A DNA stretch of 64,000 nucleotides from a virus (taxonomy: Duplodnaviria; Heunggongvirae; Uroviricota; Caudoviricetes): IMG/VR virus record IMGVR_UViG_3300030339_000005; one strand, given 5' to 3'. A program made the position numbers and the translations under genes. The notes under the pieces are model-generated. The model was not told the DNA's origin. It saw only the letters and a list, made by a program, of their open reading frames with translations, and made no database searches. Of this stretch, positions 6,062 to 37,913 are shown piece by piece (positions within the stretch are counted from its first letter, which is position 1; every line of letters starts with the position of its first letter).

Positions 6062-6072
6062 ATTATTAATTA

Positions 6073-18978: not shown

Positions 18979-18980
18979 TT

Positions 18981-21535: not shown

Positions 21536-21538
21536 GCT

Positions 21539-22875: not shown

Positions 22876-23464
22876 TACAATTACATTGAAGGTTATTAAC
22901 TAAATCATTAAAATTTCCACAGATTTGTAGATTATGAACTAAAATATTTGCTGTATTTCATTGAGAGTTTAATACAAGTGTATCTATAACATAAATTCCC
23001 ATCATTAATGTATTATTAATTAAACTTAAGGATTTATCAATTGAACAACCACTAATATTCTTAGCAATTGTCTTTTTAATAGTATTATAGTTTCTAACTA
23101 TATTATATTTATGAATTATGAATCTTTCTTCAACATCATTAGCAAAACTAGTTTGACTAAAGTCCATGTTTAATAAATCTACAGCTGTATACTCAGTAGA
23201 ATCATTATATTGTAATATTACATTATTATGAATATAAAACACACCTGATTCAGTAGGAGTTATAGTAGGTAATTTAATTGATACAATATAATATAAACTA
23301 TCTGCATTTAACGTAAAGGTTGATGTAGAGTTAATTATATTACTGTCAACTAATGAGGCAGTTGAAAAATCTACTTTAACTACAGTATGTAAATATGCAA
23401 AACCATTACTAATTGGATTTGCGACTGTAATTACTTTGCTGGTATCAGATTGTGTAATAGTCAT
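22868..23464 (-). CDS. hypothetical structural protein, about 198 aa, TGA at 22958; ends TAG 22868
   Basis: ORF 22958-23464 frame continues to TAG at 22868-22870. Confidence 0.5.
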
Positions 23465-23468
23465 AAAC

Positions 23469-23969
23469 TTAATTATAAAATTTTAATTCTCCAGTTGTAA
23501 ATAATACTGCTTCTGATTTTCTTCTATACACTAATCCAGTCAATGGAATTCCACCACCTGTTACATAGTGAGTAGTTCACCAATCATATAACTGTGGTGA
23601 GCTAGAATTAATTAATGAGAATAGAGTTGCACTTCCACCAGTATTATAAATAAAAGAGGCTAATGCTGCAATCTGATTATCATTTAATTTTACTTTAATC
23701 TTTCTTTGGATAATTGCTAGAATTGGATTCATATCAACTTCTAATTGATGATTAGCTTCATCTAATGTGTGAATAATGGATAATTGATATGCTAGAACTT
23801 TATTTTTTGGTCCCTTTACAAACTGTTTATCTGAATCTAATATTGCATGACCCCATCCCTCAGTTCATATCCCTATGGGATCCATTTTAGGTTGTAAACC
23901 TATTTCATGTAAATCTCCATCATGAAGGGATTCATAATGAGAGATTAGTTTTATAAGATTATTTATCAT
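23469..23969 (-). CDS. endolysin, GH24 phage-lysozyme-like, 166 aa, TGA-recoded
   Basis: Hand translation MINNLIKLISHYESLHDGDLHEIGLQPKMDPIGI[TGA]TEGWGHAIL... matches the E/D/T and G-x-W-T-I-G-x-G-H pattern of phage lysozymes; not in ORF track due to TGAs. Confidence 0.6.
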
Positions 23970-24205
23970 TATTGTTTTGTAATTTGAGCTGATAATCCAA
24001 TTGCATAACAAGCAGCAATAGCGTATCCAGCAATTGTAAATATAATTGCAGGAACTCCTAAAGCAACTAATCCAAATGTAGCATTTGCAGTTACTAAGGC
24101 TACTCCAATTGTTCCCAAAGATACAGAAATATTACGAACTTTTTTTCAAAAGATAGGACTTTCTGCATTTCAGCGTTCTACTAATTCTAAAAATAGTTTT
24201 TTCAT
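23969..24205 (-). CDS. holin-like small membrane protein, 78 aa, two in-frame TGA
   Basis: Hand translation MKKLFLELVER[W]NAESPIF[W]KKVRNISVSLGTIGVALVTANATFGLVALGVPAIIFTIAGYAIAACYAIGL...; two hydrophobic helices; stop overlaps lysozyme ATG (TAATG). Confidence 0.45.
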
Positions 24206-24232
24206 TGTTTTATATATTATTTATTAAATTAA

Positions 24233-26683
24233 TTACTTTGTGGCTATTTGTCTTGAACCTATTGTATCTGATTGATAATGTACTCCAATAGAGTGTACAA
24301 ACGCATTACCTGTAAAAGCATCTCCCGTTGGTCTACTTAAAGCGAATACGCAAATATCCCCAATCTTCTTTCCAGTTCCTACAATAACTGAAGCAGCATT
24401 TGCTAATTGATGTGTACCAATGACTCCACTTCCAGCTTGAGAAATAGCCATTGATGTTGAAGTTGGAAAAACTGCATTTACATTAGTTATACTATATTCA
24501 AAAGTAAAATCACAACTTCCAGTATTAGTTGACTCTGGAGATCAGTGTAAATGTACATGTAGATCAGTTCCCTCTTTATATCCATGGGGTAATTCAAAGG
24601 ATCCATAAACAGTTTCTGTAGATGCGTTTTCAAATAAAACACCATAGATTCCATTTTTAAAGATAGCCATTGGAGGAACAGTTGCTCCACCACGTAAATT
24701 TGCCGCATGAATTATAATATCATTTCAAACAACTGTATCTAAAACCATAGTTTTTTCTGCACCTGTTGTAACATATAAATCCGTTGGTGCTGCAGCATTA
24801 GTTTTTATATTTGGAGTATTGATAATATGAGAATAAACAGCAGAGAATTGTTTTGATACACTTCCCATTGGTATTAAATTATCAAATGGGGGTAGTAGAT
24901 CATCTCTTGTATATTTAGATTCTGAAAATGTCTCAGATGAATAATCATCATTCATTATTACTGCATTAATAATGCCATTTCCATTCATATTTTTACTACC
25001 ATAATTATTTGTATCAATATGACTCTTAACAATTTGTCCTTGAGTTATATCAAACATATTATATGCAAATAAATCGCTATAATAAACACTATTTAGAGTA
25101 CAAGTAGCAATACTTCCACGAATATTGTTTCCATATAGAGAGCCATTATCAATAGTAGAATTGTATAATTTAGATGGTAATATACCATTTAAAAGAAAGT
25201 TATTTCCAATAATTGATGCTGTATTTGTTAAACTAATATTATAAATTATACCATACCCAATATTATTTAAAATAGAATAAGTTCCGCCACCAAATTCAGT
25301 ATCAATTATTACATTATAAAGACGTTCTAAATTATTATTTTCAAATTTACAATATCCTTCCGCATTTAAGTTTCAATCATTATATTCAACCAAGAATCCA
25401 TCACTAGGAACAGCGGCTTCACCAAGAGAGTTTCCCTTATTATCCCATTGTCTTGAGACATAACCATAAGTTCCTTGAGTAATATCATAAGTGCAATTAA
25501 AAATTTTATCTACATATCAATTAGTAGATGTATTAAGTAAAGTTCACTCAGTTGAATTTAGTGTTCAGGTATTAGTGGCATTTAAAGTATTGGTATTGCC
25601 TTTAGCTTCTCATAATCTTCCGCCCCAAATAGTCAGTGCGCCAGCAAATACAGTAGTATTTTTAACTCATACTCCAATAGAACTAGTCATTATTGGAGTT
25701 CCACTAACTGTTCCATAGGATCCCTTCATATATGTATATGGAACACGTCCAATACGTAATCCATTCGTAAAGAAACTAGTTGTAGTTGCTGCTTGAATAA
25801 TAATTCCACTGTCGTTGGGACGTCCCATAATTTTATATAATCGACCAGGTCTTAATGTTCCACCATTAGCAGCAGTTTTTGCATCACTTACTGTAATATT
25901 AACAATTGATGGCATAACTAAAGTTGATGTTCAAGTAAATGCAGGTTCTGTAACAGTTCCTTTAATCATATATAATCCTGAATCTTGTAGTTGTAAACCA
26001 CCTTCTCCAAAGTTAACATAATATCCTGGGATTGTTGTTAAATAAAAGCAATTTTTTACTGAAGTTGGCACTGTAGTTGGAGTTGCCATACCAATAAATG
26101 TATAGCCAGCGGTATCAGCTAAGACTCCTAAGTTATTAAGAAAGGATGCTTTATAAAAATCAGAAACAGGATTTTGATATGAAAGATATGTACTTAAATC
26201 ATCTCCTACTCAAGTTCAATTACTTCAGGTATTATTTTCAACATCAACTAAATTACGCATATAAATTTTACCAGTCTCAATATACTGAATTTGAATTGAT
26301 CCAGTAGTTTCTATTAAGTTACTAAATACAATTAATTTTAAATTTATTGTGTTATTTAGAGTAGTTTCTAAAGTGCCTTCATATAACCCAGATTCAGTTA
26401 AGTTATCTAAGGACTCAATAGTAAGTAATCCAACTAATTTAGCATTAACTAATGAATTAATATTAATTCTTGCTTGTCTTTTTTCATTTGATGTAAAAAT
26501 TTGATTTTCGTTAACTCCTACTTTCTTATCTAAAATTTCTGTAGTATTTGTTAAATCATCAACAACATCAATAATATCATTAATTTTACTAACAATAGCA
26601 TTTACTTCTGTTGAAGTTAAGCCGTATTCTGTATTAGGTAATGATTGTCTAGATCTTTTTTCTGTTATATTTAATGTTTCCAT
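24233..26683 (-). CDS. tailspike/tail fiber with right-handed beta-helix-like repeats, about 816 aa, about 15 in-frame TGA; ends TAA
   Basis: ORFs 24233-24451, 24725-25057, 25667-25915, 26225-26683 same frame; gaps scanned open except TGA. Confidence 0.55.
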
Positions 26684-26685
26684 TC

Positions 26686-28908
26686 TTATTCATTTTTAAT
26701 TTCATCATTACGAGGATTAGTATCAAGTAATTGAATAGCCTCTAACTGAACACGTTTCTTTTCCCACTCTAATTTTTCTTCATTATATTTACTTTCATCC
26801 TTAGCTTTAAATCATTCTAATTCTTTAGTAAATTGAAGACGATCTTGCTCTAATTTAATTTTCTCTTGATTTAAGAATTCAACTTGTTGTTTAAGTTTTT
26901 GAGCTTCAGAAGATACTTGTTGAAGTTGTTGATTTAATTGTTGAGCTTGTTGTTGTAATTTATTTAATTGATCATCCTCTTTCTTTTTCTTCTCAATAGA
27001 TGTTTTAACATCTTCTTTCATTTTTGTTAAGCCAGTTGCAGTAACGATTTCTATCAATGTTACTGGATCAATTAAATTATTCTTTGTTAACTCCATACCT
27101 AGTTGCTTAATAATTTCTTGTTCCTTAATTACTTCAGAACTATCAGAAATATTAATATCATAATCAGTTACTGAGTAATGTTCGGGAAGTGCTGTAAAGA
27201 TTTTATTTAATTTTTCACCTAAAACTAAAGTTCCAGAAATACCATTTTTATAGACACTCTTAGTTAAATTTAATATATCTAAAAGAATTTCTCGTGTTAA
27301 TAAGTCCATTACTTGATAATATTGTTTTGTAATATATCCAGATTGACGAACTCCTACTTGAACATTTGTAACAGCATCTTTTTGTTCAATTCCACCAAGT
27401 TTTTCTTTAAACACACCTGTAATCATAGAACAAGTTTCTTCATTTCTTTGAATAGCTAGATCAATAGCTTGAATAGTTTCTAATTTAATCGTATCATCAT
27501 AACCATTAAAAGAAGTGTTTCCCATAGGTAATCCTTCTTGAGAGGAATCAAATAATGCAATTCCAGATTTCTTATAAGCTTTTCACTTCATAAGTCTGTC
27601 TGCAGTTGTAGCTCCTAAAAATATAGGAAGATGAGCAACATCTAATCAATCTCCAGTTCCACCGGATTCAGAAATAACGTTATCTCTATAAAAATAAAGA
27701 ACATCATTCTTATCTTGTAAATTAGCAGTCTTTAAAATTAATGAATATGGATCTCCATTTCTATCTGAATAGAATAGACCATTTACAGATAGATCACATT
27801 CATATGGACTATCCATACTACGAATTGGATTCTCAATTTTACCTGTTGTAATATAAATTAAAGTTCCTATACGAGTCCCTTCATATCTATTAACTACTCA
27901 GTTATCTCCCTCTTTTTCAGTTTTTAATCACTCTACATCATAGACTGGAAACAATCTAAAATATTTGGATGTATTGCGTTCAAATGGCAATAGAGGAGTT
28001 ATTTCAAATCCACCTAGAATACCATCTGATATGGTATTTCCAGTTGTACTATCATAACTTCTCAAATATGTAGTTGTTGATCCATCAACAGAATAGTCTT
28101 GTAAATTTTCAAGCTCAGCTAAGTCCTCTCTTTTAAGATCTTTTCCATATTTAGCTAAGATCTGATCTTTAGTCATATAACGACGAATAACAGATCTATA
28201 AGACTTTTTAAGGTATGGTGACTCAGGATTTCTATCAATAAAAGTATTAATTGGATTAAGTACTTCTAATTCAATGTTAGTGTTACTTGGTGAAGCAAAG
28301 ACTTTATAATAACTTGTTCCACTAATTAATAGATCAGTTAATAATAATTTTCTTTTATTACTAAAGTCTACTGCTCTTGATTGCATTGTTCAATCGGTAA
28401 TATTTTGTCCAGCAATCTCATAATCTGAAATAAAATTTCTCTCAGTAGATTGTTGTAATTCATCTAATTTAGATCCAACTTCTGCATTTGGGCCAGCTGG
28501 TCCAGGAGTTCCTGGGCCTTGTTGATCATTAATAGCACTATATAATGTAGTTTTTAGATGGCGATTTAATTCAGCAGCCATTACATTATTTACTTGGATT
28601 TGTCTATCCTTAAAGATACTTGATAATGTTTCTTTATCTTTACAAGACACTCTAGGAAGAACAGGTGTTGATAAGTATTCACCAATTAATACATCAATAT
28701 GTTTTCTAGTAAGAGGAACAAATTCTACTGAAGTAGGAGTTCCAATTCCATAATTTTCTTCCAGATGTCTAAATTGTTCTGGATCTCGTTTACCATGATA
28801 ATAATTATATGCCTTAATGATTTGAGTCTTTTCATAGACTAATTCATTAATTGCTCTATCAATATTTTCAATGATTTCTTGTTCTGTATTATTCTTCTTT
28901 TGAGTCAT
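26686..28908 (-). CDS. portal protein (putative), about 740 aa, in-frame TGA at 28390, 27928, 26812 and others; ends TAA 26686
   Basis: ORFs 28390-28908, 27928-28386, 26812-27525 same frame; frame followed to TAA; size and position next to terminase. Confidence 0.5.
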
Positions 28909-29161
28909 TTGTTCTAATTACTTTATAAATGTCTAGTCTCATATAATTTCTACTTCGTAATTCTGCATATATGAAATCTAAAAACTCTTCGTCTGTTTCA
29001 CAGTCAATATTTAAAGTAGTTGGTGTCATATAACTTGGAATACCAATAGAAAATTTATATCCAGGATTTAATTTTTCTACAGTTAATAAGCCAATATAAT
29101 CAGCTTTATACCAAGTCTTTATATATTCACGAATCGTCTGAATTAATTCTTGTTCTTGCAT
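28889..29161 (-). CDS. hypothetical protein, 90 aa
   Basis: ORF track; ends TAA. Confidence 0.45.
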   Translation of the reverse strand: MQEQELIQTIREYIKTWYKADYIGLLTVEKLNPGYKFSIGIPSYMTPTTLNIDCETDEEFLDFIYAELRSRNYMRLDIYKVIRTNDSKEE

Positions 29162-31193
29162 CTCGTTCTTCTATTGTTTTTGGTATTATACCATAATGTT
29201 TATAACCTTTACTATCTTTATATCAACCTATGTCTTCGAATTTTTTACCAATTGGTTCTCTTGCAACAGGTTTCCTAACTGATAATTCTTCATCACCTAA
29301 TTCCGCCATACCCATTGCTGCTACAATATCAAACTCTTTTTTCTTTTCATCAGAATATTCTAGCAACTGTTCTACAATTTCTCTATAAGCAATTGTATAA
29401 CAATAATCTAAACAAAAATCGTAAATTAATTCTCGATAATGATCAATAACTTTAGGACTTGTTGGAGCTCCATACATATTTGCATTACCTTTTGTAACGT
29501 CAGACATTGTAGATCTCGGCCTTTTCATTAATAAATGAAGTAATTTTTGATCTCTAAAGTGAGTTAAGATAGCAGTTCTCGAAGATTCTAATACTGCTTG
29601 GCAGCCATAATGAGTTAACATCTTTGCAGCTATCTCATAAGCCTCTCTAGGATCTCTTGGTCTATCTTTATATAGTGCAACATAACATGGATCTGAAGTT
29701 CCAAATACCCTTTTCTTAATTACTATACAAAATTGTGATGGCTTTTTATCAGTTCCAGTAGAGTCTGCAGTTCCTATATCAATGGAGTCAATGCCACCAA
29801 CATATAAATTTCTATAAGATGTTTCTGCTTCTGAGACTAATGGTTGTTCTAATATAAGAATCTTTCCATTCTCATCATCTCGAACTCACTTTGTTCCAAT
29901 AATTTGATCGTGTTGATCTCGAGTTCAAATTAAATGTCCTCTAATAGGTACTGGAACATTTTTATAAATATCAATTCGAGCGGCTTGTTCTGCTAATTCT
30001 TCACGAGGAAACATATTATCACCTTGTTGAATTAAAGCCTCTTCAATTGTAAAACAATATTCAGCTTTATAAATTAATAATCCCTTAGGATCTTCAGCCT
30101 TTAATCGTCTTTGATATTCATAATATTCTTTAGCTTTCTGTGGATCGCACCATCCGCGCTTATCAAGTAAACTAATTACCATTCGATAAGCTGGAATAAA
30201 CATTGCAGTTTCTATTGTGCGACCATCAGGAGTATAATTATGTCTATAACGTAATACATTATATGCATCAGGCTTAGTAACAATATCTTTAATACCTTCA
30301 AGTGCTGGACCTTCGTCTCCTCCAGTTCCTCATACAATTCTAGTTCCTACACGCTCTCCTCCTAATACAGTTATTAAAGCTTCTCCTTGTAGATATTTTT
30401 TCTTTAAAACTTTATCAGATCCTGCTTCTTCAAAGAATAATCGTTCAACACGGTCACCTCTAATTTTTTCTGGAGAATCGGCAATTACACCCTCAATTTC
30501 TGACATATGTCCCATCTCAACTCCATCTCGTGTTTTTACAGAAGCTCTCTTATGACTATTTGTATTAATAACCATACGAACTCTTTTAAATGCACCTTCA
30601 GTTTCTTCATTTAAATAATCAAGTTGAAGCCAAATTTTTGTTAGCAATGGTTTAAGATGTTTTTCAGAATAGGCTGACGCAAGCACACGATAGTTTGGCG
30701 TCGTTACAAATGGTCGAGCACATAATTCTGCTGCCATTTCCGAAAAGCCCAAGGCACGAGCCTTAACGAGTGCTACATCTTTTCCCAAATATTCACATAA
30801 TTCAACATAATGAAAATATTCATATTGAAAAACTAAGAACATTGGGAAGCTAATCTTTCTACCAGCTGACGCTTTAGCTCCTTCAACAGATGATTTTAAT
30901 CTATAGAAATTTAATCAAAAATAATTATCACCAGTAATTCTATAACCATTGATAGTTAACCCTTCAGTACATCGTTTAAATCTTTCTTTTCAAAATTCGA
31001 TGTATCCTCGAGAACCATAAACAGTTTTACTATATTTACCTGTTTTAACTTTAGTAATTGCATCTTCACGAAACAAATCAGGATCAAAATCAAGTCCTTG
31101 AGATTCGTTTATAGGTCTATAACCAGTTATTTCATATGATAGTGTAGGATCAAAACATTCAATCGAATCACCCAATTTTATATCTCAGTCCAT
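29106..31193 (-). CDS. terL: terminase large subunit, about 695 aa, TGA-recoded (TGA at 31185, 30990, 30330, 29925, 29223); ends TAA 29106
   Basis: Five ORF-track fragments in one frame; merged sequence has ATPase-then-nuclease order typical of TerL; ATG 31191-31193 overlaps upstream stop. Confidence 0.6.
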
Positions 31194-31195
31194 AA

Positions 31196-31789
31196 TTAAA
31201 ATCTTATTTGACCTTGATCAAAGAATCCTGCTTCAGTACCACCACGTAATCCACTATCAGGTTCTAATTCTTTTTTAACTTGAGTTTCTAATTCATTTAA
31301 ACTAGCAACAAGTTCTTTAGCATTTTTAATATTACTAATTAAATCCTTAGAACTAAAAATTGGTTTCCCAGTTACAGCATCTCGTTCATTAATATCAACC
31401 GTCTCAAAGTAAAAAATTAATTTTTCTACCGCTGACATACATGCTCTAAGCATTCTAATATTAATACCTCCATTTTGTATAGATTCATACATTCTGCAAG
31501 CACTTTTAAATTCTGGATCTTCAAATTCTTCGTCTGTTAATCCAGAATTCTCCAGTGAACGTTGATGCCTATCTTGTTCAGGCTCATTAAAGAATGGACT
31601 TTCCCAATCAAAGAAAAGGAAAATGTATGCAAATTCTTTGTAAGCTCTTATTTTATTTTTTCCTAATGGATCGGCTGTACATTTATTACGTTGCTCATTC
31701 ATTAATATAGCAAATTCCTTAACAAGAAGAATTCCTTCTCTATTAATTACTACTTGCTCATTTACATTATCATATATAAAAAATTTCAT
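31196..31789 (-). CDS. hypothetical protein, 197 aa; possible small terminase subunit by position only
   Basis: ORF track; immediately upstream of terL. Confidence 0.35.
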   Translation of the reverse strand: MKFFIYDNVNEQVVINREGILLVKEFAILMNEQRNKCTADPLGKNKIRAYKEFAYIFLFFDWESPFFNEPEQDRHQRSLENSGLTDEEFEDPEFKSACRMYESIQNGGINIRMLRACMSAVEKLIFYFETVDINERDAVTGKPIFSSKDLISNIKNAKELVASLNELETQVKKELEPDSGLRGGTEAGFFDQGQIRF

Positions 31790-31824
31790 ATTTGTTGTAT
31801 TAAATTAACTATTAATTTTGTATC

Positions 31825-33387
31825 TTATTTTTTAAGTCTATTTTTAACTTTACCACCACATTTATCAACGCTTGGATTTGGTTTATTAATATCTCCACCA
31901 GATTGTTTCTTCTTCATCTTAGCTTTTACTTTACCACCACATTTAAATTCTTGTGGCCAAGTATTTAATTGATTTGCTAATACATTTGGAATTTGTACTT
32001 GTGGAGTATTTATTCTAGGTGTTGACATCAGAACATTTGGATTAATAGGTCTAGTATCATTATAAGTAACCATTCTTGAAATTGGGGGAGCAACTAAAGC
32101 TGTTGCAGGATTTGCTTGAGCATTATTCGTAAGCATCGCTTGTCTAGTTTGTGCCCCAATAATTCCATCAGCTGTTAATCCATGTGCTTGTTGAAAAGCA
32201 ATAATTCCAGCTTTAGTATTTTTTCCATAAATACCATCAGTCTTACCTGTATTATAGCCTAAATTATTTAATGTTTGTTGGTCCTGTTTTAACTTAGCAT
32301 CTACAGCAATTCTATTAACAACTGGCTTTGTATTCGTTGTTGCTTTTGGTGCAACTGTTTTAGTAGTTGGTTTATTAACTACAGGAGTTGTTTTATTTGA
32401 TGTTGATGTAGTTGATGTAGTTGATGCAACTCTATTTGGAACAGTTTTATTACTTGGAGTTGATTGTGTTGGTTGTGTTGATTGTCCTGGCTTAGTAGTT
32501 GACTTAATAACTGGCTTAGAAGTAGGTGCAGTTTTAGTTGAAGTTGGGGCTGAATTTGATTTTTGTGTAGGAGCCTGAGGAGCCTGAGGGGCTGGTCTTT
32601 GAACGCCAGGTCCAAAAGTAGGTGCTGTAGATGCTCCTGGTCTAGCAGTTCCTTTAGCAGTTACAACTGTATCAGGTAATGTTACATTATTAACAGTAGT
32701 TGGACGCATAGGAGATCTAACACCAGTAACGGCCATGGGTGGTTTATATGGATTAAAAGGAGCTACACTATCAAATTGTCTTGCAACCTGTACATTTGGT
32801 TTAGAAGGTCCTTGAGGTATATGATTTTGATGTTGTGGAGTAGCAGCAACAATTGATGGTGTAAACATACGTTCAATTAATGGACGATGTTCAGCACGTA
32901 ATCTTTGTGATTCTGCATTACTTCTATCTATAAATCCTTGTGGAGCTTGAGCACCATCTTTAGCTTTTAGAACTAATCCACCATTTTCTTTTTTAGCCAC
33001 TTTCTTTTTAACTTTACCTCCGCCACAATTACAAGCACATCTTTCCTCCATTTTACCACCAACTTTTCTTGATAGGATGTCACATCCACAAGCACATTTC
33101 TTTGACTTTGGTTTTGCTTTTAGTTTCTTTAACTTTGCACCTTTGGCAGCAAATTGTGCAGTAGCTTGTTGTGTTTGAGCTGTATATTGCTCATCTAATT
33201 TGTTCCAGTCGTCGTCAGATAAATTATCTGCTGCAGCTGAGATTGCATTAATATCATCTTCGTTAGACTGGATTAAGCTTGTCCATTCTTCGATAGAAGA
33301 TGTGTTGCCATACTTCTCTGGATCCATTTGTTGTGAATATATATAAGCAAAGTATGGAAATAATTCTTGTTTCTTTGTGTCGTCCAT
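31825..33387 (-). CDS. peptidoglycan-binding-domain protein with Pro/Thr-rich linker and repeated Cys-Gly-Gly-Lys motifs, 520 aa
   Basis: GIYGKNTKAGIIAFQQAHGLTADGIIGAQTRQAM resembles the PG_binding_1 repeat; several CGGKVK motifs; no in-frame TGA. Confidence 0.5.
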   Translation of the reverse strand: MDDTKKQELFPYFAYIYSQQMDPEKYGNTSSIEEWTSLIQSNEDDINAISAAADNLSDDDWNKLDEQYTAQTQQATAQFAAKGAKLKKLKAKPKSKKCACGCDILSRKVGGKMEERCACNCGGGKVKKKVAKKENGGLVLKAKDGAQAPQGFIDRSNAESQRLRAEHRPLIERMFTPSIVAATPQHQNHIPQGPSKPNVQVARQFDSVAPFNPYKPPMAVTGVRSPMRPTTVNNVTLPDTVVTAKGTARPGASTAPTFGPGVQRPAPQAPQAPTQKSNSAPTSTKTAPTSKPVIKSTTKPGQSTQPTQSTPSNKTVPNRVASTTSTTSTSNKTTPVVNKPTTKTVAPKATTNTKPVVNRIAVDAKLKQDQQTLNNLGYNTGKTDGIYGKNTKAGIIAFQQAHGLTADGIIGAQTRQAMLTNNAQANPATALVAPPISRMVTYNDTRPINPNVLMSTPRINTPQVQIPNVLANQLNTWPQEFKCGGKVKAKMKKKQSGGDINKPNPSVDKCGGKVKNRLKK

Positions 33388-33400
33388 TTTTTAAGAAAAA

Positions 33401-33625
33401 TTAAAGTTTTATTAAATCTTTTGTATTGAAGATACTTTCTTGAAGTTCTCCGTTTGCTGTGAATCATTTACATAGAATGCCTTGAAAGTAATCATTCTTT
33501 ACATCTTGAGTTCGAATAGTTTTAGTAACTTTACGAACTACCAACATTGTTGGTTTATTAGGAAGTTCTTGTCTTAGAGTCACAACGTCTCCAGGTAAGA
33601 AAAATTGTTTTGTGTCATTAATCAT
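33401..33625 (-). CDS. hypothetical small protein, 74 aa, one in-frame TGA at 33464-33466
   Basis: Hand translation MINDTKQFFLPGDVVTLRQ...GILCK[W]FTANGELQESIFNTKDLIKL; not in ORF track. Confidence 0.4.
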
Positions 33626-33679
33626 ATTTTATTATTTTGCATTTCGGTTATAAAAAATAACCATTCGTTTGTATACATA

Positions 33680-34231
33680 TTATTCCATATTTAAACGTTC
33701 TTTTAATTTGTCATTTAAGAAACATAGAATTTGTGGTTCACTAGTTAGGATATACCCAAGAGACATAAAGGGAATTGGATAAACTGTTCGTGTATCATAG
33801 AATACATCATCATTTGGTTTAACAAATTTACAATCAGGCCCTACTTCAATAACTTTAGCACAAGCTACAAGTTCTTTTAAGTTATCATTCTCTCCAGAAT
33901 CGGGATTTAAGAATTGTCCTTTATACTCTCCAATAAATAAGCCACCTTGCGATAAGGTTTTCTTATATGGATTAGAAGGATAGGGAAGTAAGATAACTTT
34001 ATTACCCATTGGTAACATCTCTAGAGTTTGAATTCTTGCTTCTAATTCTTTTTGTTTTTCTAATTCTAGTTCGTATTTTAATTTACGTGCCTCTTCTTTA
34101 ACCTTATTATCTTTCTCTAGTTCTAATTCTAATTTCTCTTTTGCAAAAGGTTCAGCCATTTGAATTAAATTCTTACCCATAAAATAACTTCCATTTGCTT
34201 CATTTAAAGTCTTATCCATAATCATTATCAT
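33680..34231 (-). CDS. hypothetical protein, 183 aa, coiled-coil N-terminal half
   Basis: ORF track. Confidence 0.4.
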   Translation of the reverse strand: MIMIMDKTLNEANGSYFMGKNLIQMAEPFAKEKLELELEKDNKVKEEARKLKYELELEKQKELEARIQTLEMLPMGNKVILLPYPSNPYKKTLSQGGLFIGEYKGQFLNPDSGENDNLKELVACAKVIEVGPDCKFVKPNDDVFYDTRTVYPIPFMSLGYILTSEPQILCFLNDKLKERLNME

Positions 34232-34497
34232 TTATTTATTATACATTTTTCTTCATCTACTCTAGTCTTACTTCCTAATACACATCCACATCCTTGAATA
34301 AATCCAGGTTGTTCAATTCTAGAAACATTTCCATCTTTATTTATATATTTAGATGCATCACACATCTCTCCTCATAATTTATCTACTTTATGTAAAGGAC
34401 ATTCTCGACAAATCGTTATACGACTTTTATAAAGTTCATCTTTTTTATTTAGTAGATTATTATAAAAGCCTTCTGCTATTTGAGTAATAGAAGACAT
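34225..34497 (-). CDS. small Cys-rich (CxxC...CxC) zinc-ribbon-like protein, about 90 aa, TGA-recoded
   Basis: Hand translation MSSITQIAEGFYNNLLNKKDELYKSRITICRECPLHKVDKL[W]GEMCDASKYINKDGNVSRIEQPGFIQGCGCVLGS... Confidence 0.4.
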
Positions 34498-34931
34498 GCT
34501 CCAACAAAGCCTACTACTGTACCTCCACCAAGCCAAGCTGGCCATAAGGACGCACGTTTTTTATATTTTATCTTTAGATTAGTTTCTTTTTCTATTCTAG
34601 CATCAGCTTTTTTTAGTTCTGATTTTTGAAAAGTAACAGCATCTTCTGCTATCTTTACAGATTCATCTCTATTCTTAACTTGAATTCTTAAATTGCCAAT
34701 TTCTTTAGATTGTGCTTCAATAGATTCTTGTCCAACATAATATAATTGTGAAGTTTCTTCAAGATTAGTGATATAAATTCTTAAGTCCATTAACTCTTGC
34801 TTAGTAAATGTATATACTATTGTTGTATCTTTTCCATCTGTACTAATTTTCCAAGTTATTGATGATTGAGTCCAACCATTTAGCGTGGTTAGCAGCAGAA
34901 GCATCATGGATAATATTAATTTCTTGATCAT
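34476..34931 (-). CDS. secreted or membrane protein, 151 aa, N-terminal signal and C-terminal TM helix; spanin-like by architecture
   Basis: MIKKLILSMMLLLLTTLNG... and C-terminal LWPAWLGGGTVVGFVGACLLLLK. Confidence 0.4.
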   Translation of the reverse strand: MIKKLILSMMLLLLTTLNGWTQSSITWKISTDGKDTTIVYTFTKQELMDLRIYITNLEETSQLYYVGQESIEAQSKEIGNLRIQVKNRDESVKIAEDAVTFQKSELKKADARIEKETNLKIKYKKRASLWPAWLGGGTVVGFVGACLLLLK

Positions 34932-35205
34932 GCTTAATAAGTATTTGTTGTTTAACTTTTTCTAATGAATCTAATTTGACTTCTAAAGTCTTTTGTTCCA
35001 ATTTTAACTCAGTATAAATACTATCTTTATCATGAATTTGCTTCATGTATAATTGAATAATTAAGTCCCTATCACTACGATATTCAATATCTTTATGATT
35101 AATTATATATGCTGTTCCACCTATAACTAATAGTAGACCTACCATATGTAATCCAAGTTTAGAACGTAATTTTTTCCCTAATTCTTTTAAATTCATCATA
35201 TTCAA
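34843..35205 (-). CDS. membrane protein, N-terminal TM helix plus coiled coil, 120 aa; overlaps 34476-34931 in another frame
   Basis: LGLHMVGLLLVIGGTAYII followed by coiled-coil-rich sequence. Confidence 0.4.
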   Translation of the reverse strand: MNMMNLKELGKKLRSKLGLHMVGLLLVIGGTAYIINHKDIEYRSDRDLIIQLYMKQIHDKDSIYTELKLEQKTLEVKLDSLEKVKQQILIKHDQEINIIHDASAANHAKWLDSIINNLEN

Positions 35206-36091
35206 TTTGTTTTCTATAAAATGTTAACATTCTCTCAACGTCATTCTTTAAATACTCACATTCATATGTTGTACATCCACCATCGTGATCATAGTGTACA
35301 AGAATTAATTCTTTAATAGTAACTCCTGGGAATTGTTTTTCAATCATCCAAGCATAAGTAGATAATTGTAAACTGTAATGCCAAAAGTTAGTATCTTGTA
35401 AGTTGTTTAAAGGATACTTCATCATTTGAGACTTCTTAGTTTTTCTATCAAAATAAGAAGCCTTTTTAATTTCTTTATTTGTTTTATAATCTAAAATATA
35501 AACATCAGTTCCATCAATAATAACTAAGTCTGCTTGACCTGCAATTCTTAAAACTCTATCTTCTGATACTCGAGATAATAATAATTCAGGATATACTCCT
35601 TGTTCTCCTAAGCATATTTGATTCGTTAATCTTGGAGTAAATTTTCCACCCAATCCAAGATGTTGTAATTCTTTAGTATTACCAGCCATATGTTCCAATT
35701 CTTGAAGTCTATGGATTGCTGTCCCTCGCATACAAGAAGCCTCACGTTTGGAGGCCCACTCTTGAAGAATTTCTGCCCTAGCTTCATTAAACTCATCCTC
35801 AGTTACAGCAACTTCATCTAAGTATTTTAAATGAAATCTTTTTGTATTTAATAAGGCAGGTTTAATATTTATAAAAGCGTCAGGTACTAAAGACTCTAAT
35901 GCTTTGTAAGCTGACCAAAACTCTTCGTCAAATGTTGTAAATTGATGTATTAAAGTTGTTACTGAGATACAAGGTTCTCTGGAACTCTTTGTCCAGTATT
36001 TATGCATTTTATCATTATAACTAACAGCTGAATTTTCTTTATCAATTTCTAATTCACCATAGTTAATTTCATTTTCATTTATCATTATCAT
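35159..36091 (-). CDS. PD-(D/E)XK-family nuclease (exonuclease or Cas4-like), 310 aa
   Basis: Motif AGQADLVIIDGTDVYILDYKT (D...D-x-K) and C-terminal Cys pair. Confidence 0.5.
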   Translation of the reverse strand: MIMINENEINYGELEIDKENSAVSYNDKMHKYWTKSSREPCISVTTLIHQFTTFDEEFWSAYKALESLVPDAFINIKPALLNTKRFHLKYLDEVAVTEDEFNEARAEILQEWASKREASCMRGTAIHRLQELEHMAGNTKELQHLGLGGKFTPRLTNQICLGEQGVYPELLLSRVSEDRVLRIAGQADLVIIDGTDVYILDYKTNKEIKKASYFDRKTKKSQMMKYPLNNLQDTNFWHYSLQLSTYAWMIEKQFPGVTIKELILVHYDHDGGCTTYECEYLKNDVERMLTFYRKQIEYDEFKRIREKITF

Positions 36092-36095
36092 TATT

Positions 36096-36788
36096 TTAAT
36101 TTACAAGTTCTTCCCAATTTTCTAAACAAAGAAGTCCACTAATTTTTTGAGATGCTTCAGCGATATTAGCTATTACATCATCTACACTAAATATGTGCCC
36201 TTCTTTAACTGTTAACAATAGAACTCCTAATAATTGATCCACTCCATAAATAGCATAAAATACTGCCGATCCACAAGTATGTTGTTTTAATAAGTTATAA
36301 ATAGCTGGAAAAGTAAGTCTAATATCTTCTGAATGCCCAATATAAATATAACCAATATTTTCAACTTCCAGTAAAAAATCTGCAAAGAGAGATACATTAA
36401 CTCGTTGATATGCATATGCTATGCTTGTTGAGCCAACTGCAAAACATTCACATGTAGCATTTACAAATAAAAAAGGTAAGCCTGCTAAATTTGAACTGCC
36501 GTTTGAAAATTCAAAAAGTATAGCTCTATTAATCTTTGTATTCACAATTAAATCAGAAAGAGTTCGTGATACTTCGGCAGCTATATTTTTTCTTTTAAGA
36601 TTTGCTTTAACATGTTCTTGGGCTTGTTGTGTTTCTCGTCTATCTATATACTTCTCAATTAAAGTCGGAGACGCTTTAATAAGAGTATGTATTCCAAAGA
36701 AGACGCCTCCTAATAATAAGCACGCGATTGCAGTAGTCATTCCATAAGTTTCAGCAATCTGTTTAAAAAAAGTAAGTAGGTGTTCCAT
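36096..36788 (-). CDS. membrane-anchored protein, 230 aa
   Basis: N-terminal hydrophobic segment TAIACLLLGGVFFGIHTLI. Confidence 0.4.
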   Translation of the reverse strand: MEHLLTFFKQIAETYGMTTAIACLLLGGVFFGIHTLIKASPTLIEKYIDRRETQQAQEHVKANLKRKNIAAEVSRTLSDLIVNTKINRAILFEFSNGSSNLAGLPFLFVNATCECFAVGSTSIAYAYQRVNVSLFADFLLEVENIGYIYIGHSEDIRLTFPAIYNLLKQHTCGSAVFYAIYGVDQLLGVLLLTVKEGHIFSVDDVIANIAEASQKISGLLCLENWEELVN

Positions 36789-36964
36789 TAATTGTCGTTG
36801 GTTTAAAGTGAGTACACTATTTATTATTTATACAAAGGTATTAATAAATTTTACAACAAAAATAAGATTCAATAAAAATCTTAAACAGAATTAATCTCGT
36901 TATTGTCATTGAAATTTTTTTGCATATTAACAAAAAAGGAGGCAAATTAATTGCCTCCTCACTT

Positions 36965-37657
36965 TTATATTTGGTGTTCTCGTAAAACTGCTAAAATATC
37001 TTTAATAATTGGATTCCTAACACTATCACTATCTTCAAATTCTACTACTGAAACTACAGAACTATCTTGAAAAATCTTTGCAACTTTTAATAAACAAGAT
37101 TCTTCAATTTTTTTTCTATCTACTTGTTCAGTATCACCTAGAAAAATAAATTTACAATTACTTCCGATACGAGTAATTAAAGATTTAAATGTATGGGTAT
37201 CTATGTTCTGCGTTTCATCAACAATTACTATACAATCGTCTTGTGTAACTCCACGTACATAAGCTATAGGGAGAATATCTATCAGACCTTTCTTAATAAA
37301 GTCATTTGATACACCTTTTTTGGCAAATAATTTATCTATGTTACCTGTAAAAGAAACAATATAAGGTTCCATTTTTTCTTCCATAGATCCTGGAAGATAA
37401 CCAATGTTTTCACCTGTAATAGTTTGGACTGATTTTACAATTACAATACGTTTATACTTGTTTCCAAGTAATCCAAATGCTGTTCCTAAAGCACAATACG
37501 TTTTTCCCGTACCTGCTGGACCTGTGCAGATTGTTATTTCGCTGCTAGTAATAGCATCACGAAACTCTTCTTGTTTGTCGTTCAGACAGTGAAACCTGTG
37601 TAAATTCTGAACTTGTTCGTCTGGGACTCGTCCCTTTTCTTTGCCTTCTTTTCTCAT
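36965..37657 (-). CDS. phoH: PhoH-like ATPase, 230 aa
   Basis: Walker A ICTGPAGTGKTYCALG, Walker B IVIVDETQN, typical PhoH length. Confidence 0.7.
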   Translation of the reverse strand: MRKEGKEKGRVPDEQVQNLHRFHCLNDKQEEFRDAITSSEITICTGPAGTGKTYCALGTAFGLLGNKYKRIVIVKSVQTITGENIGYLPGSMEEKMEPYIVSFTGNIDKLFAKKGVSNDFIKKGLIDILPIAYVRGVTQDDCIVIVDETQNIDTHTFKSLITRIGSNCKFIFLGDTEQVDRKKIEESCLLKVAKIFQDSSVVSVVEFEDSDSVRNPIIKDILAVLREHQI

Positions 37658-37707: not shown

Positions 37708-37742
37708 TTAAAAAGTAGGGCCGCCTAATAACTAAGCGGCCC
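37708..37742 (-). terminator. rho-independent terminator (minus-strand orientation)
   Basis: GGGCCGC-11 nt-GCGGCCC hairpin followed by TTTTT on minus strand, downstream of the tRNA gene. Confidence 0.55.
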
Positions 37743-37817: not shown

Positions 37818-37913
37818 TGGCACGGGTATCAGGACTCGAACCCGAATAATGAAGTTTGGACCTCCACGTGTGGTTTTGAAGACCACTTCTATTCCCAATA
37901 GGAAAGTACCCGC
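37818..37913 (-). tRNA. suppressor tRNA reading UGA (anticodon UCA); long variable arm, G73 discriminator, encoded CCA, irregular D-arm
   Basis: Minus strand GCGGGTA...GTGGT-CTTCAAA-ACCAC...TGGAG-GTCCAAA-CTTCA...TCGGG-TTCGAGT-CCTGA-TACCCGT-G-CCA; 7-bp acceptor, 5-bp anticodon stem with loop CUUCAAA, canonical T-arm. Confidence 0.6.

What the first reader, a model, noticed from the sequence alone, without database searches (positions are those of the whole stretch)
37818..37913. Candidate opal-suppressor tRNA (anticodon UCA) with type-II, Ser/Sec-like architecture
The minus strand between the structural block and the plus-strand recoded gene encodes a 93-nt tRNA-like molecule. It has a 7-bp acceptor stem, G73 discriminator, encoded CCA, perfect 5-bp anticodon stem with loop CUUCAAA (anticodon UCA reads UGA), a 5-bp extra-arm hairpin and a canonical T-arm. 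A rho-independent terminator follows it. It would supply the decoding activity needed for the TGA-containing late genes. The long extra arm plus G73 are seryl-tRNA-like identity elements. Several TGA positions sit where Trp is expected, so the inserted amino acid is an open question. The D-arm does not fold canonically in my hands.
Basis: seen in the sequence. Interest (0 to 1): 0.8.

Follow-up and report, generated by a model that had tools for sequence, protein, structure and literature searches.

The report
Stop-codon tRNA carrying a second anticodon arm
This phage gene encodes a real tRNA that reads the stop codon UGA as tryptophan, and its "extra arm" copies the anticodon hairpin of normal tryptophan tRNA, which probably lets the host charging enzyme still recognise it; dozens of phages share this apparently undescribed design.

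Summary
ARAGORN calls a 96-nt tRNA(UCA) at 37818-37913 (-). Rfam tRNA-Sec scores 38 bits (E 4.5e-6, below its cut-off of 47). An intrinsic terminator follows. Eight homologues give strong covariation for five helices: 96% of cells paired, 18 of 28 pairs compensatory.

The Ser/Sec reading fails. The acceptor/T branch is 7/5, not 8/5. In-frame TGA in the terminase aligns with TGG-Trp, Phe or Tyr in relatives, and never with Ser.

The extra arm is a 6-bp stem with the 7-nt loop GUCCAAA. That is U33-CCA-A37-A38, the tRNA-Trp anticodon loop. In scans blind to that loop, 54 of 55 non-Sec long phage tRNA(UCA) carry UCCA there. Genuine tRNA-Sec score 0 of 18, and Ser/Leu/Tyr extra arms 1 of 56. There are 45 different stems. 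G73 occurs in 48 of 49, and A1-U72 or G1·U72 in 43 of 49.

Best explanation: an opal-suppressor tRNA-Trp whose pseudo-anticodon arm presents CCA to the host TrpRS while UCA decodes UGA. That it is a tRNA, and that UGA is read as Trp, are well supported. The TrpRS role is inferred.

I found no description of a natural case. An engineered analogue exists (Mukai 2020).

The parts
37818..37913 (-). Complete five-arm tRNA(UCA) gene, 96 nt including the encoded CCA
   Evidence: ARAGORN. Rfam tRNA-Sec 38 bits, E 4.5e-6. Custom covariance model R1, 104.6 bits. Covariation.
37907..37913 (-). Acceptor stem, 5' strand GCGGGUA. It pairs with 37822-37828 (UACCCGU), giving G1.U72 and C2-G71.
   Evidence: Sequence. 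All 7 pairs are 100% paired in 8 homologues, and 6 of the 7 show changes on both sides.
37887..37903 (-). D arm UCCUAUU-GGG-AAUAGAA: a long stem (5-bp core, 7 bp across a C.A mismatch) with a 3-nt loop
   Evidence: Sequence. Core helix 95% paired, and 2 of 5 pairs show changes on both sides.
37870..37886 (-). Anticodon arm GUGGU-CUUCAAA-ACCAC. The anticodon UCA at 37877-37879 reads UGA.
   Evidence: ARAGORN places the anticodon at tRNA position 35. Helix 97.5% paired, and 3 of 5 pairs are compensatory.
37849..37867 (-). Extra (pseudo-anticodon) arm GUGGAG-GUCCAAA-CUUCAU. The loop is N32-U33-C34-C35-A36-A37-A38 of tRNA-Trp, with CCA at 37857-37859.
   Evidence: All 5 core pairs show changes on both sides. 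UCCA is invariant in the loop in 55 of 55 family members. UCCA is present in 54/55 non-Sec long tRNA(UCA), against 0/18 tRNA-Sec and 1/56 Ser/Leu/Tyr extra arms.
37829..37845 (-). T arm UCGGG-UUCGAGU-CCUGA
   Evidence: Sequence. Helix 100% paired.
37818..37821 (-). Discriminator G73 and the encoded CCA end
   Evidence: Sequence. G73 occurs in 48 of 49 members of the class.
37708..37742 (-). Intrinsic terminator-like hairpin with T tract, about 75 nt downstream of the tRNA and just upstream of the PhoH-like gene
   Evidence: Terminator scan: 11-bp stem with 7 G-C pairs, then TACTTTTT. Two sites were found against 0.3 expected.
31196..37657 (-). Run of co-directional genes with no in-frame TGA, lying between the tRNA and the recoded block. 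It includes a PhoH-like ATPase (36965-37657) and a PD-(D/E)XK nuclease.
   Evidence: ORF and TGA counts. Pfam: PhoH 2.3e-52, PDDEXK_1 2.7e-07.
1082..31253 (-). Late-gene block read with TGA as a sense codon. It holds the terminase large subunit (29106-31193, 8 TGA), a portal-like ORF, and a 4311-codon ORF (6073-19008) with 41 TGA and 10 TGG. These are the tRNA's presumed clients.
   Evidence: ORF statistics. TGA columns align with Trp, Phe or Tyr.

Best explanation
The gene encodes a five-arm opal-suppressor tRNA-Trp of a crAss-like phage that most likely infects Bacteroidota.

It is transcribed ahead of a TGA-free gene run and the TGA-rich late genes. Its 5-bp/7-nt anticodon arm (UCA) pairs with UGA on the ribosome and inserts tryptophan.

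Changing the anticodon from CCA to UCA removes C34, which is one of the major identity nucleotides read by bacterial TrpRS. The tRNA compensates by carrying, in the position of a class-II variable arm, a second hairpin. That hairpin's 7-nt loop reproduces the tRNA-Trp anticodon loop (U33-C34-C35-A36-A37-A38).

This pseudo-anticodon arm, together with G73 and a G1.U72/A1-U72 first pair, is proposed to recruit or orient the host TrpRS. Identity (CCA, read by the synthetase) and decoding (UCA, read by the ribosome) are thereby split between two arms. G73 and C2-G71 would at the same time keep the class-II synthetases LeuRS, TyrRS and SerRS off.

Shown here: it is a conserved, structured tRNA; UGA occupies Trp positions; and the CCA loop is under strong selection across many lineages.
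For: (1) It is a real tRNA. Evidence: ARAGORN, Rfam, covariation in 8 homologues and in 59.

(2) UGA means Trp.
- Under TGA read-through the window's ORF content rises from 17.6k to 27.2k codons, and a 4311-codon ORF appears.
- The 8 TGA in the terminase align with TGA, TGG-Trp, Phe or Tyr in 45 relatives, and never with Ser.
- They align with W/F/Y in the TGA-free crAss-like terminases cr55_1, cr115_1 and MT835470.

(3) The extra-arm loop is GUCCAAA.
- Two collection scans fixed only the anticodon arm and the T loop. In them, 54 of 55 unique non-Sec long tRNA(UCA) carry UCCA in the extra region, against 0 of 18 genuine 8/5 tRNA-Sec (Fisher p 3e-16) and 1 of 56 Ser/Leu/Tyr extra arms.
- The loops are 7 nt long, N-U-C-C-A-A-A, whereas ordinary extra arms mostly have 3-5-nt loops.
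- 45 distinct stems carry the same loop.

(4) In the synteny-defined sample of terminase relatives, which is unbiased, all 4 distinct long tRNA(UCA) have the loop. Their three body types are different.

(5) Trp identity elements are retained: G73 in 48 of 49, A1-U72 in 35, and G1.U72 in 8. The identity rules come from PMC9976931.

(6) In phage tRNA arrays the five-arm tRNA sits beside an ordinary tRNA-Trp(CCA) whose anticodon stem-loop (GGU-CUCCAAA-ACC) is what the extra arm copies. The two halves of a five-arm tRNA hit ordinary annotated tRNA-Trp genes in GenBank phages.

(7) No TrpRS-like ORF was found in the window or in any locus (Pfam). That is consistent with reliance on the host enzyme.

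(8) Experimental background. Thirteen phage tRNA(UCA) all inserted Trp in E. coli extract, while 11 others were inactive (PMC12636597). An engineered pseudo-anticodon V-arm improved charging by a HisRS fused to an extra anticodon-binding domain (PMC7590224).
Against: - No biochemical evidence shows that TrpRS touches the extra arm.
- The tip of a variable arm does not occupy the position of the anticodon in the L-shape, so direct binding to the same anticodon-binding site would need a different docking mode or the second subunit of the dimer.
- Close relatives of this phage use ordinary 72-75-nt tRNA(UCA) without any extra arm. The arm is therefore not obligatory for opal suppression.
- Position 32 of the window's loop is G, whereas true anticodon loops usually have a pyrimidine there.
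- A scan that forced the motif also pulled out genuine bacterial tRNA-Sec with UCCAAA in the extra-arm loop. By a rough estimate of my own this is about chance level, but it shows the motif alone is not diagnostic.
- One Trp-like long tRNA(UCA), in L083, lacks the motif.
- No analogous Gln pseudo-anticodon arm was found on amber suppressors, though the scan was restrictive.
- The host, expression and charging state are all unobserved.
Confidence: 0.55

Rival explanations
1. This is a class-II, seryl- or selenocysteinyl-type suppressor: SerRS charges it through the long extra arm and G73, and UGA is read as Ser (or as Sec after conversion).
For: It has a long extra arm, G73 and a long D stem with a short loop. 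ARAGORN labels it SeC. Its best Rfam match is tRNA-Sec. SerRS ignores the anticodon (established knowledge; PMC9976931).
Against: - The branch is 7/5, not 8/5.
- The Rfam score of 38 is below the cut-off of 47.
- C2-G71 is an anti-determinant for E. coli SerRS.
- The window has dozens of in-frame TGA per gene, 41 in one ORF, which is incompatible with SECIS-dependent Sec insertion.
- TGA columns hold Trp, Phe or Tyr and never Ser.
- Genuine phage-borne tRNA-Sec form a separate group without the CCA loop.
Confidence: 0.04
2. It is an opal-suppressor tRNA-Trp charged through G73, the first pair and U34-C35-A36 alone. The extra arm is a leftover or a structural module. Its conserved loop is read by something other than TrpRS, such as an anticodon-loop modification enzyme like MiaA (which recognises A36-A37-A38), a phage factor, or a tertiary contact. 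Alternatively it tunes ribosomal decoding or competition with RF2.
For: Related phages manage with short tRNA(UCA). E. coli TrpRS is reported to charge UCA suppressors (bioRxiv 10.1101/2021.08.26.457843; PMC12636597). The two halves look like a tRNA-Trp with a doubled anticodon arm, which suggests an origin by duplication.
Against: A relic would not keep U-C-C-A invariant over 45 different stems and three different tRNA bodies. The stems of the two arms are no more alike within a tRNA than between tRNAs (3.69 vs 3.56 of 8 positions), which argues against recent duplication. Among enzymes known to read the tRNA-Trp anticodon loop, only TrpRS is specific for the CCA triplet (established knowledge).
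Confidence: 0.22
3. Arm-swap or dual-decoder model. The two anticodon-type hairpins can each stack under the D stem. TrpRS selects the conformer that presents CCA as the anticodon. The ribosome uses the UCA conformer at UGA and possibly the CCA conformer at UGG.
For: In the members with a Trp-like body both hairpins have exact anticodon-arm dimensions (5 bp plus 7 nt). The D-arm/first-hairpin junction and the second-hairpin/4-nt-spacer/T-arm junction are each canonical. GenBank tRNA-Trp genes align separately to the 5' half and to the 3' half that includes the second hairpin.
Against: In the window tRNA the spacer between the two hairpins is only 2 nt and the extra stem is 6 bp. That resembles an ordinary class-II variable arm and would make a swap strained. 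No natural tRNA is known to switch arms. U34 can already wobble-read UGG.
Confidence: 0.1
4. It is not a translational adaptor but a tRNA-like decoy or regulator. For example, it might titrate TrpRS or a tRNA-targeting defence nuclease, while UGA is read by a host or other phage factor outside the window.
For: The window covers only part of the genome. A second, clearly non-decoding tRNA-like RNA lies at 48785-48882.
Against: The anticodon loop CUUCAAA, the T loop, G73 and the encoded CCA are all intact. In the terminase-defined clade, whose terminases all carry in-frame TGA, 19 of 65 sequences (18 of 64 loci plus the window) hold a tRNA(UCA) upstream of the terminase on the same strand, and the others are mostly too short to reach that region. 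No other candidate decoder exists in the 64 kb.
Confidence: 0.05

Closest known systems
Phage-encoded opal suppressor tRNA-Trp(UCA) of TGA-recoded (code 4) phages, including crAss-like phages (Yutin 2021 PMC7886860; Borges 2021 bioRxiv 10.1101/2021.08.26.457843; Seki 2025 PMC12636597)
   Same: Anticodon loop CUUCAAA, G73, and UGA read as Trp in late genes. Standard-code genes lie next to the tRNA. The tRNA depends on host TrpRS when no phage TrpRS is present. Relatives of this phage carry the ordinary 72-75-nt form at the same genomic position.
   Different: The described suppressors are treated as ordinary tRNAs with a changed anticodon. None of the papers I could search mentions an extra arm or a second CCA loop. 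Here the tRNA has five arms, and standard tools mistype it as SeC or score it below threshold.
Bacterial tRNA-Sec (Rfam RF01852)
   Same: UCA anticodon, G73, length of about 95 nt, a long extra arm, and a long D stem with a very short loop. It is the best Rfam match.
   Different: The acceptor/T branch is 7/5 rather than 8/5, and the score is below gathering. UGA occurs dozens of times per gene at Trp positions. The extra-arm loop is a 7-nt anticodon mimic that genuine phage-borne tRNA-Sec lack (0/18).
Engineered pseudo-anticodon V-arm tRNAs (Mukai 2020, Int J Mol Sci, PMC7590224)
   Same: The same design principle: a suppressor anticodon in the anticodon arm, and the cognate anticodon displayed on the variable arm to recruit an anticodon-binding domain. 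In that study a GUG pseudo-anticodon enhanced histidylation.
   Different: That system is synthetic. It is built on a 9/3 allo-tRNA chassis and needs a HisRS fused to an additional anticodon-binding domain. The tRNAs here are natural, 7/5, specific for Trp, widespread in phages, and presumably use an unmodified host enzyme.
Class-II tRNAs whose identity resides in the extra arm: tRNA-Ser, allo-tRNAs (Mukai 2017 PMC5389517), and nematode nev-tRNAs (PMC3333845, known to me only from its abstract)
   Same: A long extra arm, and an uncoupling of anticodon from amino-acid identity.
   Different: In those tRNAs the arm is recognised by its length and orientation (by SerRS or LeuRS), and the loop sequence is unimportant. 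Here the loop sequence is what is conserved, and it spells the anticodon of a class-I, anticodon-reading synthetase.
Anticodon-arm mimics outside tRNAs: the thrS operator and viral tRNA-like structures (reviewed in PMC9976931)
   Same: A hairpin that copies a cognate anticodon loop in order to bind a synthetase.
   Different: Those are mRNA or genomic RNA elements used for regulation or 3'-end charging. They are not a second arm inside a decoding tRNA.

Membership tests
tRNA (general; Rfam RF00005 / ARAGORN) | Cloverleaf with acceptor, D, anticodon and T arms; a 7-nt anticodon loop with U33; a T loop of the form UUCRANY | tested here: met
   ARAGORN call. All helices are supported by covariation. 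The loop is CUUCAAA and the T loop is UUCGAGU. Neither RF00005 nor RF01852 reaches its gathering score on the 64-kb run.
Bacterial tRNA-Sec (RF01852) | A 13-bp acceptor/T branch (8/5) | tested here: not met
   The acceptor stem is 7 bp and the T stem 5 bp. C8 has no partner. The Rfam alignment needs a deletion and mismatches to force a 9/4 fold.
Bacterial tRNA-Sec (RF01852) | Score at or above the Rfam gathering cut-off (47 bits) | tested here: not met
   38.0 bits, E 4.5e-6. No hit at gathering thresholds.
Bacterial tRNA-Sec (RF01852) | UGA read as Sec at rare, SECIS-dependent sites | tested here: not met
   There are 41 in-frame TGA in one ORF and 8 in the terminase, all at Trp/aromatic columns.
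Bacterial tRNA-Sec (RF01852) | A 6-bp D stem with a 4-nt loop | tested here: inconclusive
   The D stem has a 5-bp core (7 bp across a C.A mismatch) and a 3-nt loop. This is similar but not identical.
tRNA-Ser (class II, charged by SerRS) | Long extra arm plus G73 | tested here: met
   The extra arm is 19 nt, and G73 is present.
tRNA-Ser (class II, charged by SerRS) | Acceptor-stem determinants (G2-C71 in E. coli; C2-G71 is an anti-determinant there) | tested here: not met
   The window tRNA has C2-G71. The rule comes from PMC9976931. The rules for Bacteroidota SerRS are unknown.
tRNA-Ser (class II, charged by SerRS) | The codon it reads occupies Ser positions in proteins | tested here: not met
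   Columns aligned to TGA in the three long-tRNA phages hold TGA 661, W 258, F 113, Y 63 and no Ser. W/F/Y is also seen in terminases that have no in-frame TGA.
Bacterial tRNA-Trp / opal-suppressor tRNA-Trp(UCA) | Discriminator G73 | tested here: met
   G73 in the window and in 48 of 49 class members.
Bacterial tRNA-Trp / opal-suppressor tRNA-Trp(UCA) | First pair A1-U72 (G1-U72 is also reported as a Trp determinant, in rice mitochondrial tRNA-Trp) | tested here: met
   The window has G1.U72. In the class, A-U occurs in 35 and G.U in 8 of 49. Rules from PMC9976931.
Bacterial tRNA-Trp / opal-suppressor tRNA-Trp(UCA) | Anticodon C34-C35-A36 presented to TrpRS | tested here: inconclusive
   The decoding anticodon is U34-C35-A36. 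A full U33-C-C-A-A37-A38 loop is present on the extra arm. Whether TrpRS reads it was not testable.
Bacterial tRNA-Trp / opal-suppressor tRNA-Trp(UCA) | The codon it reads occupies Trp positions | tested here: met
Bacterial tRNA-Trp / opal-suppressor tRNA-Trp(UCA) | Class-I architecture with a 4-5-nt variable loop | tested here: not met
   The variable region is 24 nt long and contains a 6-bp/7-nt hairpin.
Bacterial tRNA-Trp / opal-suppressor tRNA-Trp(UCA) | Aminoacylation with Trp | not testable with these tools
   This needs charging assays or proteomics.
allo-tRNA (Mukai 2017) | A 12-bp branch split 8/4 or 9/3 | tested here: not met
   The branch is 7/5.

The most novel reading that the evidence does not exclude
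Phages have evolved a natural split-anticodon tRNA. One arm (UCA) is read by the ribosome. A second, anticodon-shaped arm (CCA) is read by the aminoacyl-tRNA synthetase. The tRNA can therefore decode a stop codon without losing its amino-acid identity. This design recurs on at least three different tRNA bodies across dozens of phage lineages, and standard tools have filed it as tRNA-SeC. A bolder version holds that the two arms can exchange places in the L-shape.
Probability: 0.5. Interest if true: 0.9.

Novelty: new variant of a known kind. Interest (0 to 1): 0.8.

Why it matters
Stop-codon recoding in phages is well documented, but how the suppressor tRNAs stay good substrates for host synthetases is described as an open question (Borges et al.). 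Many recoded phages also seem to lack a detectable suppressor.

This tRNA, and the roughly 50 relatives found here, suggest a simple answer for UGA read as Trp. The cognate anticodon is kept on a second arm for the synthetase, and the decoding arm is free to change.

If this is confirmed, four things follow.
- It would be the first natural tRNA in which identity and decoding triplets sit on separate arms.
- It would explain some missing or mistyped (tRNA-SeC) suppressors in phage annotation.
- It would give a ready sequence signature for finding code-4 phages.
- It would hand synthetic biology a natural template for efficient suppressor tRNAs for anticodon-reading synthetases. That idea has so far only been engineered (Mukai 2020).

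Tried and rejected
- **Rfam at gathering thresholds on the whole window.** No hit. Only the permissive search showed tRNA-Sec at 38 bits.
- **GenBank phage searches.** A 15-kb piece gave no match with megablast. The tRNA itself with blastn gave only partial T-arm hits. There are no close cultured relatives.
- **Hidden tRNA(UCA) in terminase-related loci without an ARAGORN call.** A regex scan and the covariance model found none.
- **ORF-length gain under TGA read-through as a way to link the five-arm class to recoding across all loci.** It did not discriminate, because the Sec-like control loci, which come from GC-richer sequence, showed the same gain. I dropped it.
- **Recent tandem duplication of the anticodon arm.** The stems of the two arms are no more similar within a tRNA than between tRNAs. 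Recent duplication is therefore not supported, although the half-matches to tRNA-Trp genes are compatible with an old duplication.
- **A phage TrpRS near these tRNAs.** A motif scan of all loci found none, and Pfam on 10 window proteins found no synthetase or release factor.
- **Generalisation to amber suppressors with a Gln pseudo-anticodon.** The three hits were all ordinary tRNA-Gln. The pattern was restrictive.
- **A kissing interaction between the D loop and the extra-arm loop.** UUGGG and UCCAA are complementary in the window, but this is not conserved in L061 or other members (my reading). Rejected.
- **The Seki 2025 tRNA library.** The supplement is not held, so I could not check whether five-arm tRNAs were among those tested.
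- **Literature.** Six full-text searches for a natural pseudo-anticodon, second anticodon or long-arm tRNA-Trp found none.
Full report
**1. The observation**

ARAGORN reports two tRNA-like genes in the window. One is tRNA-SeC(tca) at exactly 37818-37913 on the minus strand. The sequence reads:

GCGGGUA CUU UCCUAUU GGG AAUAGAA GUGGU CUUCAAA ACCAC AC GUGGAG GUCCAAA CUUCAU UAU UCGGG UUCGAGU CCUGA UACCCGU G CCA

This gives:
- a 7-bp acceptor stem with G1.U72, then G73 and an encoded CCA
- a 5-bp anticodon stem with loop CUUCAAA
- a canonical T arm
- an extra hairpin, 6 bp with a 7-nt loop

Rfam finds nothing at gathering thresholds. A permissive search gives tRNA-Sec at 38 bits (cut-off 47) with E 4.5e-6. 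A G+C-rich hairpin followed by a T tract lies at 37742-37718, about 75 nt downstream. The single-sequence fold is only marginally better than shuffles (z = -1.9), so the case for a real structured RNA rests on comparison with relatives.

**2. Context**

The window is 33% G+C. If TGA is read through, total ORF content rises from 17.6k to 27.2k codons and a 4311-codon ORF appears.

In-frame TGA is concentrated in the minus-strand block 1082-31253. That block holds the terminase, a portal-like ORF, and the giant ORF with 41 TGA against 10 TGG. The co-directional genes between that block and the tRNA (31196-37657) have no in-frame TGA. They include a PhoH-like ATPase and a PD-(D/E)XK nuclease.

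The terminase is about 29% identical to Crassvirales terminases and 46% identical to an uncultured gut phage. Named hosts among the hits are Bacteroides and Flavobacterium. This is a divergent crAss-like phage with a TGA-recoded late module, which is a known situation (PMC7886860; bioRxiv 10.1101/2021.08.26.457843).

**3. Which amino acid**

Sixty-four viral contigs encode terminases related to the window's; all but one are 57-76% identical. All 45 full-length copies carry in-frame TGA.

The window's eight TGA columns hold only TGA, TGG-Trp, Phe or Tyr in the others, apart from one Arg and alignment gaps. One column, for example, has 43 TGA and 2 TGG. The same holds for the TGA codons of L019 and L043, which carry other long tRNA(UCA). 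Pooled over the three phages the aligned residues are TGA 661, W 258, F 113, Y 63, and no Ser.

Three crAss-like terminases have no in-frame TGA: cr55_1, cr115_1 and MT835470. Against these, the alignable window TGA positions fall on W/W/W, Y/Y/F, F/F/W, W/-/Y and W/-/Y. UGA is therefore read as Trp, or at least as an aromatic residue, and not as Ser or Sec.

**4. Relatives of the tRNA**

Eighteen of the terminase loci hold a tRNA(UCA) on the terminase strand, 6-10 kb upstream of the terminase and upstream of the PhoH gene where that gene is present.

Ten distinct ones are ordinary 72-75-nt tRNAs with a Trp-like D arm and G73. The long ones are L061 (95 nt, a clear homologue of the window tRNA), L019 = L023 (100 nt) and L043 (93 nt, with a Ser/Tyr-like D arm).

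Eight window-type sequences were aligned: window, L061, L073, L149, L104, L097, L146 and L180.
- The five-helix structure is 96.4% paired.
- 18 of 28 pairs change on both sides.
- None of 500 shuffles reaches these values, and slid controls give 37-49% paired.
- The extra-arm helix has compensatory changes at all five core pairs.

A covariance model built from this alignment scores the window at 104.6 bits and finds further members (L133, L182). On 59 aligned hits the structure is 94.4% paired, and again all five extra-arm pairs covary. That alignment is fitted to the model.

**5. The extra arm is an anticodon-arm mimic**

The loop of the window's extra arm is GUCCAAA. L061 also has GUCCAAA. 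L019 has CUCCAAA, the exact anticodon loop of tRNA-Trp. L043 has CUUCCAACC.

To test this without bias I scanned the viral collection with patterns that fix only the UCA anticodon arm and the T loop and require a long spacing. ARAGORN on all loci gave 73 unique tRNA(UCA) of at least 85 nt. They split cleanly into two groups.
- Eighteen are typical 8/5 tRNA-Sec: GGAAG or GGGAG acceptors, a 6-bp D stem with a CUGGUG-type loop, and a ...CCGCCA end. None has UCCA in the extra region.
- Of the other 55, 54 have it (Fisher p = 3e-16).

Only 1 of 56 Ser/Leu/Tyr extra arms from the same loci has UCCA anywhere. None has it in the hairpin loop, and their loops are mostly 3-5 nt.

In the class, the motif sits in a 7-nt loop N-U-C-C-A-A-A/C, closed by 4-8 bp, on 45 distinct stems. 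U, C, C and A are invariant in 55 of 55 aligned members. That is the pattern U33, C34-C35-A36, A37, A38.

The class uses at least three bodies:
- a Trp-like D arm, GUGUAAUGGUAGCAC
- the long-D-stem body of the window
- a Ser/Tyr-like D arm

All are 7/5. G73 occurs in 48 of 49, and the first pair is A-U in 35 and G.U in 8. G73 and the first pair are the bacterial tRNA-Trp identity elements outside the anticodon (PMC9976931).

In phage tRNA arrays the five-arm tRNA lies next to, or within a few kb of, an ordinary tRNA-Trp(CCA). That tRNA's anticodon stem-loop (GGU-CUCCAAA-ACC) is what the extra arm reproduces. When a five-arm tRNA is blasted against GenBank phages, its 5' third and its 3' half (extra arm, short spacer, T arm and acceptor) each hit annotated tRNA-Trp genes. 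No record matches full length.

**6. Mechanism**

*Shown:*
- It is a conserved five-arm tRNA.
- It lies upstream of the recoded genes.
- UGA occupies Trp positions.
- Trp identity elements are retained.
- The CCA loop is under strong purifying selection across many lineages while its stem covaries.

*Inferred:* bacterial TrpRS uses C34-C35-A36 and G73 as major determinants. Changing C34 to U to read UGA weakens recognition. The extra arm offers the enzyme an intact CCA loop, so identity and decoding are separated.

Three further points fit this.
- G73 is an anti-determinant for LeuRS and TyrRS, and the window's C2-G71 is one for E. coli SerRS. This would keep class-II synthetases off a tRNA with a long arm.
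- No TrpRS-like ORF occurs in the window or in any locus, which fits the use of the host enzyme.
- In E. coli extract, 13 phage tRNA(UCA) inserted Trp and 11 were inactive. Charging by a given TrpRS is evidently not guaranteed. An engineered pseudo-anticodon V-arm did enhance charging by a HisRS fused to an extra anticodon-binding domain.

*Weak points:*
- There is no biochemistry.
- The tip of a variable arm is not where the anticodon sits, so the docking mode is unknown.
- Close relatives use short suppressors.
- The window's loop has G at position 32.
- A scan that forced the motif retrieved genuine tRNA-Sec of Caulobacteraceae, Bryobacterales and others with UCCAAA in the arm. By a rough estimate of my own this is about chance level.
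- One Trp-like long tRNA(UCA), L083, lacks the motif.
- A restrictive search for an analogous Gln arm on amber suppressors was negative.

*My estimates:*

| Claim | Probability |
|---|---|
| It is a real tRNA | about 0.97 |
| It decodes UGA as Trp | about 0.85 |
| The extra arm acts as a TrpRS handle | about 0.5 |

**7. Rivals**

- **Ser/Sec identity** is contradicted by the 7/5 branch, the sub-threshold score, the codon alignments and the number of TGA codons.
- **A relic or purely structural arm** does not explain an invariant loop on 45 different stems. The two arms' stems are also no more alike within a tRNA than between tRNAs.
- **An arm-swap model** is conceivable for the Trp-body members, where both hairpins are 5 bp plus 7 nt with canonical outer junctions. 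It is strained for the window tRNA, where the spacer is 2 nt.
- **A non-decoding decoy** is unlikely given the intact decoding and acceptor features and the conserved position of a tRNA(UCA) in this clade of phages with TGA-recoded terminases.

**8. Hosts and spread**

A window-type tRNA (L180) is identical to one in the Bacteroides neonati MS4 assembly (L199), across 8 kb of flanking sequence. Others lie in an uncultured Bacteroides MAG contig of 163 kb and in Coriobacteriia and Bacilli MAG contigs. The class is therefore not confined to crAss-like phages.

**9. Comparison with the literature**

TGA-to-Trp recoding and suppressor tRNAs in crAss-like and other phages are known. The five-arm architecture with a Trp pseudo-anticodon was not found in six full-text searches, nor in the papers read. 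The nearest thing is Mukai's synthetic pseudo-anticodon V-arm. The library lacks most subscription-journal papers, so a prior description cannot be excluded.

**10. Verdict**

The Ser/Sec interpretation is wrong. The real finding is a widespread, apparently undescribed class of phage tRNA-Trp(UCA) with a second, CCA-bearing anticodon-type arm.

Noticed in passing
window 48785-48882 (+): A second tRNA-like gene. Rfam tRNA scores it at 49.5 bits and ARAGORN calls it 'Cys(aca)'. The acceptor, D and T arms are normal and the discriminator is U. The anticodon arm, however, is replaced by a roughly 17-bp extended hairpin ending in a UUGA tetraloop, so there is no 7-nt anticodon loop. It could be a tRNA-like decoy or a processed precursor. 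The gathering-threshold Rfam run did not report it, although its score exceeds the cut-off.
   Followed up: partly
L065 11311-11401: A 91-nt tRNA-Ile(UAU) in a phage tRNA array. It has an extra hairpin, CGA-CAGAUAA-UCG, whose loop carries GAU, the ordinary Ile anticodon. This may be a second instance of the pseudo-anticodon principle for another anticodon-reading synthetase. It is a single case with only a 3-bp stem and A in place of U33.
   Followed up: partly
window about 37921-38037 (-), directly upstream of the tRNA: A small ORF, MEVFNDPDKTVGKYYIGPISKIDFEELLKDIDYIDSLN. It has tblastn matches (56-62% identity) only in L019, L023 and L043, upstream of the tRNA in each. These three loci are among the terminase-related loci that carry long five-arm tRNAs.
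   Followed up: no
L192-L223 (bacterial genome contigs): Genuine 8/5 tRNA-Sec of Caulobacteraceae/Phenylobacterium, Bryobacterales, Skermanella, Rubripirellula, Terriglobia and others have UCCAAA(A) in the extra-arm loop. The search pattern forced the motif, so this may be chance, but it recurs in several lineages.
   Followed up: partly
L083 2905-3002: A Trp-like body with a UCA anticodon arm and a 29-nt extra region that has no UCCA motif. ARAGORN miscalls it Phe(aaa). It is an exception to the class rule.
   Followed up: no
L070, L081, L092: Long tRNA(UCA) with discriminator U73 instead of G73. The extra-arm loops are 5 nt long: AACCA in L070 and AUCCA in L081/L092. They may form a separate identity class.
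   Followed up: no
window 44000-52000: Coding density is unusually low under any stop-codon reading: ORF coverage is 0.48-0.55 under the standard code and 0.62-0.76 with TGA read through. The odd tRNA-like gene lies in this region, so it may hold other non-coding RNAs.
   Followed up: no
L199 (Bacteroides neonati MS4, NZ_HG726020.1) = L180: A window-type five-arm tRNA(UCA) lies on a 1.48-Mb scaffold of a cultured Bacteroides isolate, with 8 kb identical to an IMG/VR viral contig. This could be an experimentally tractable host-phage system.
   Followed up: partly
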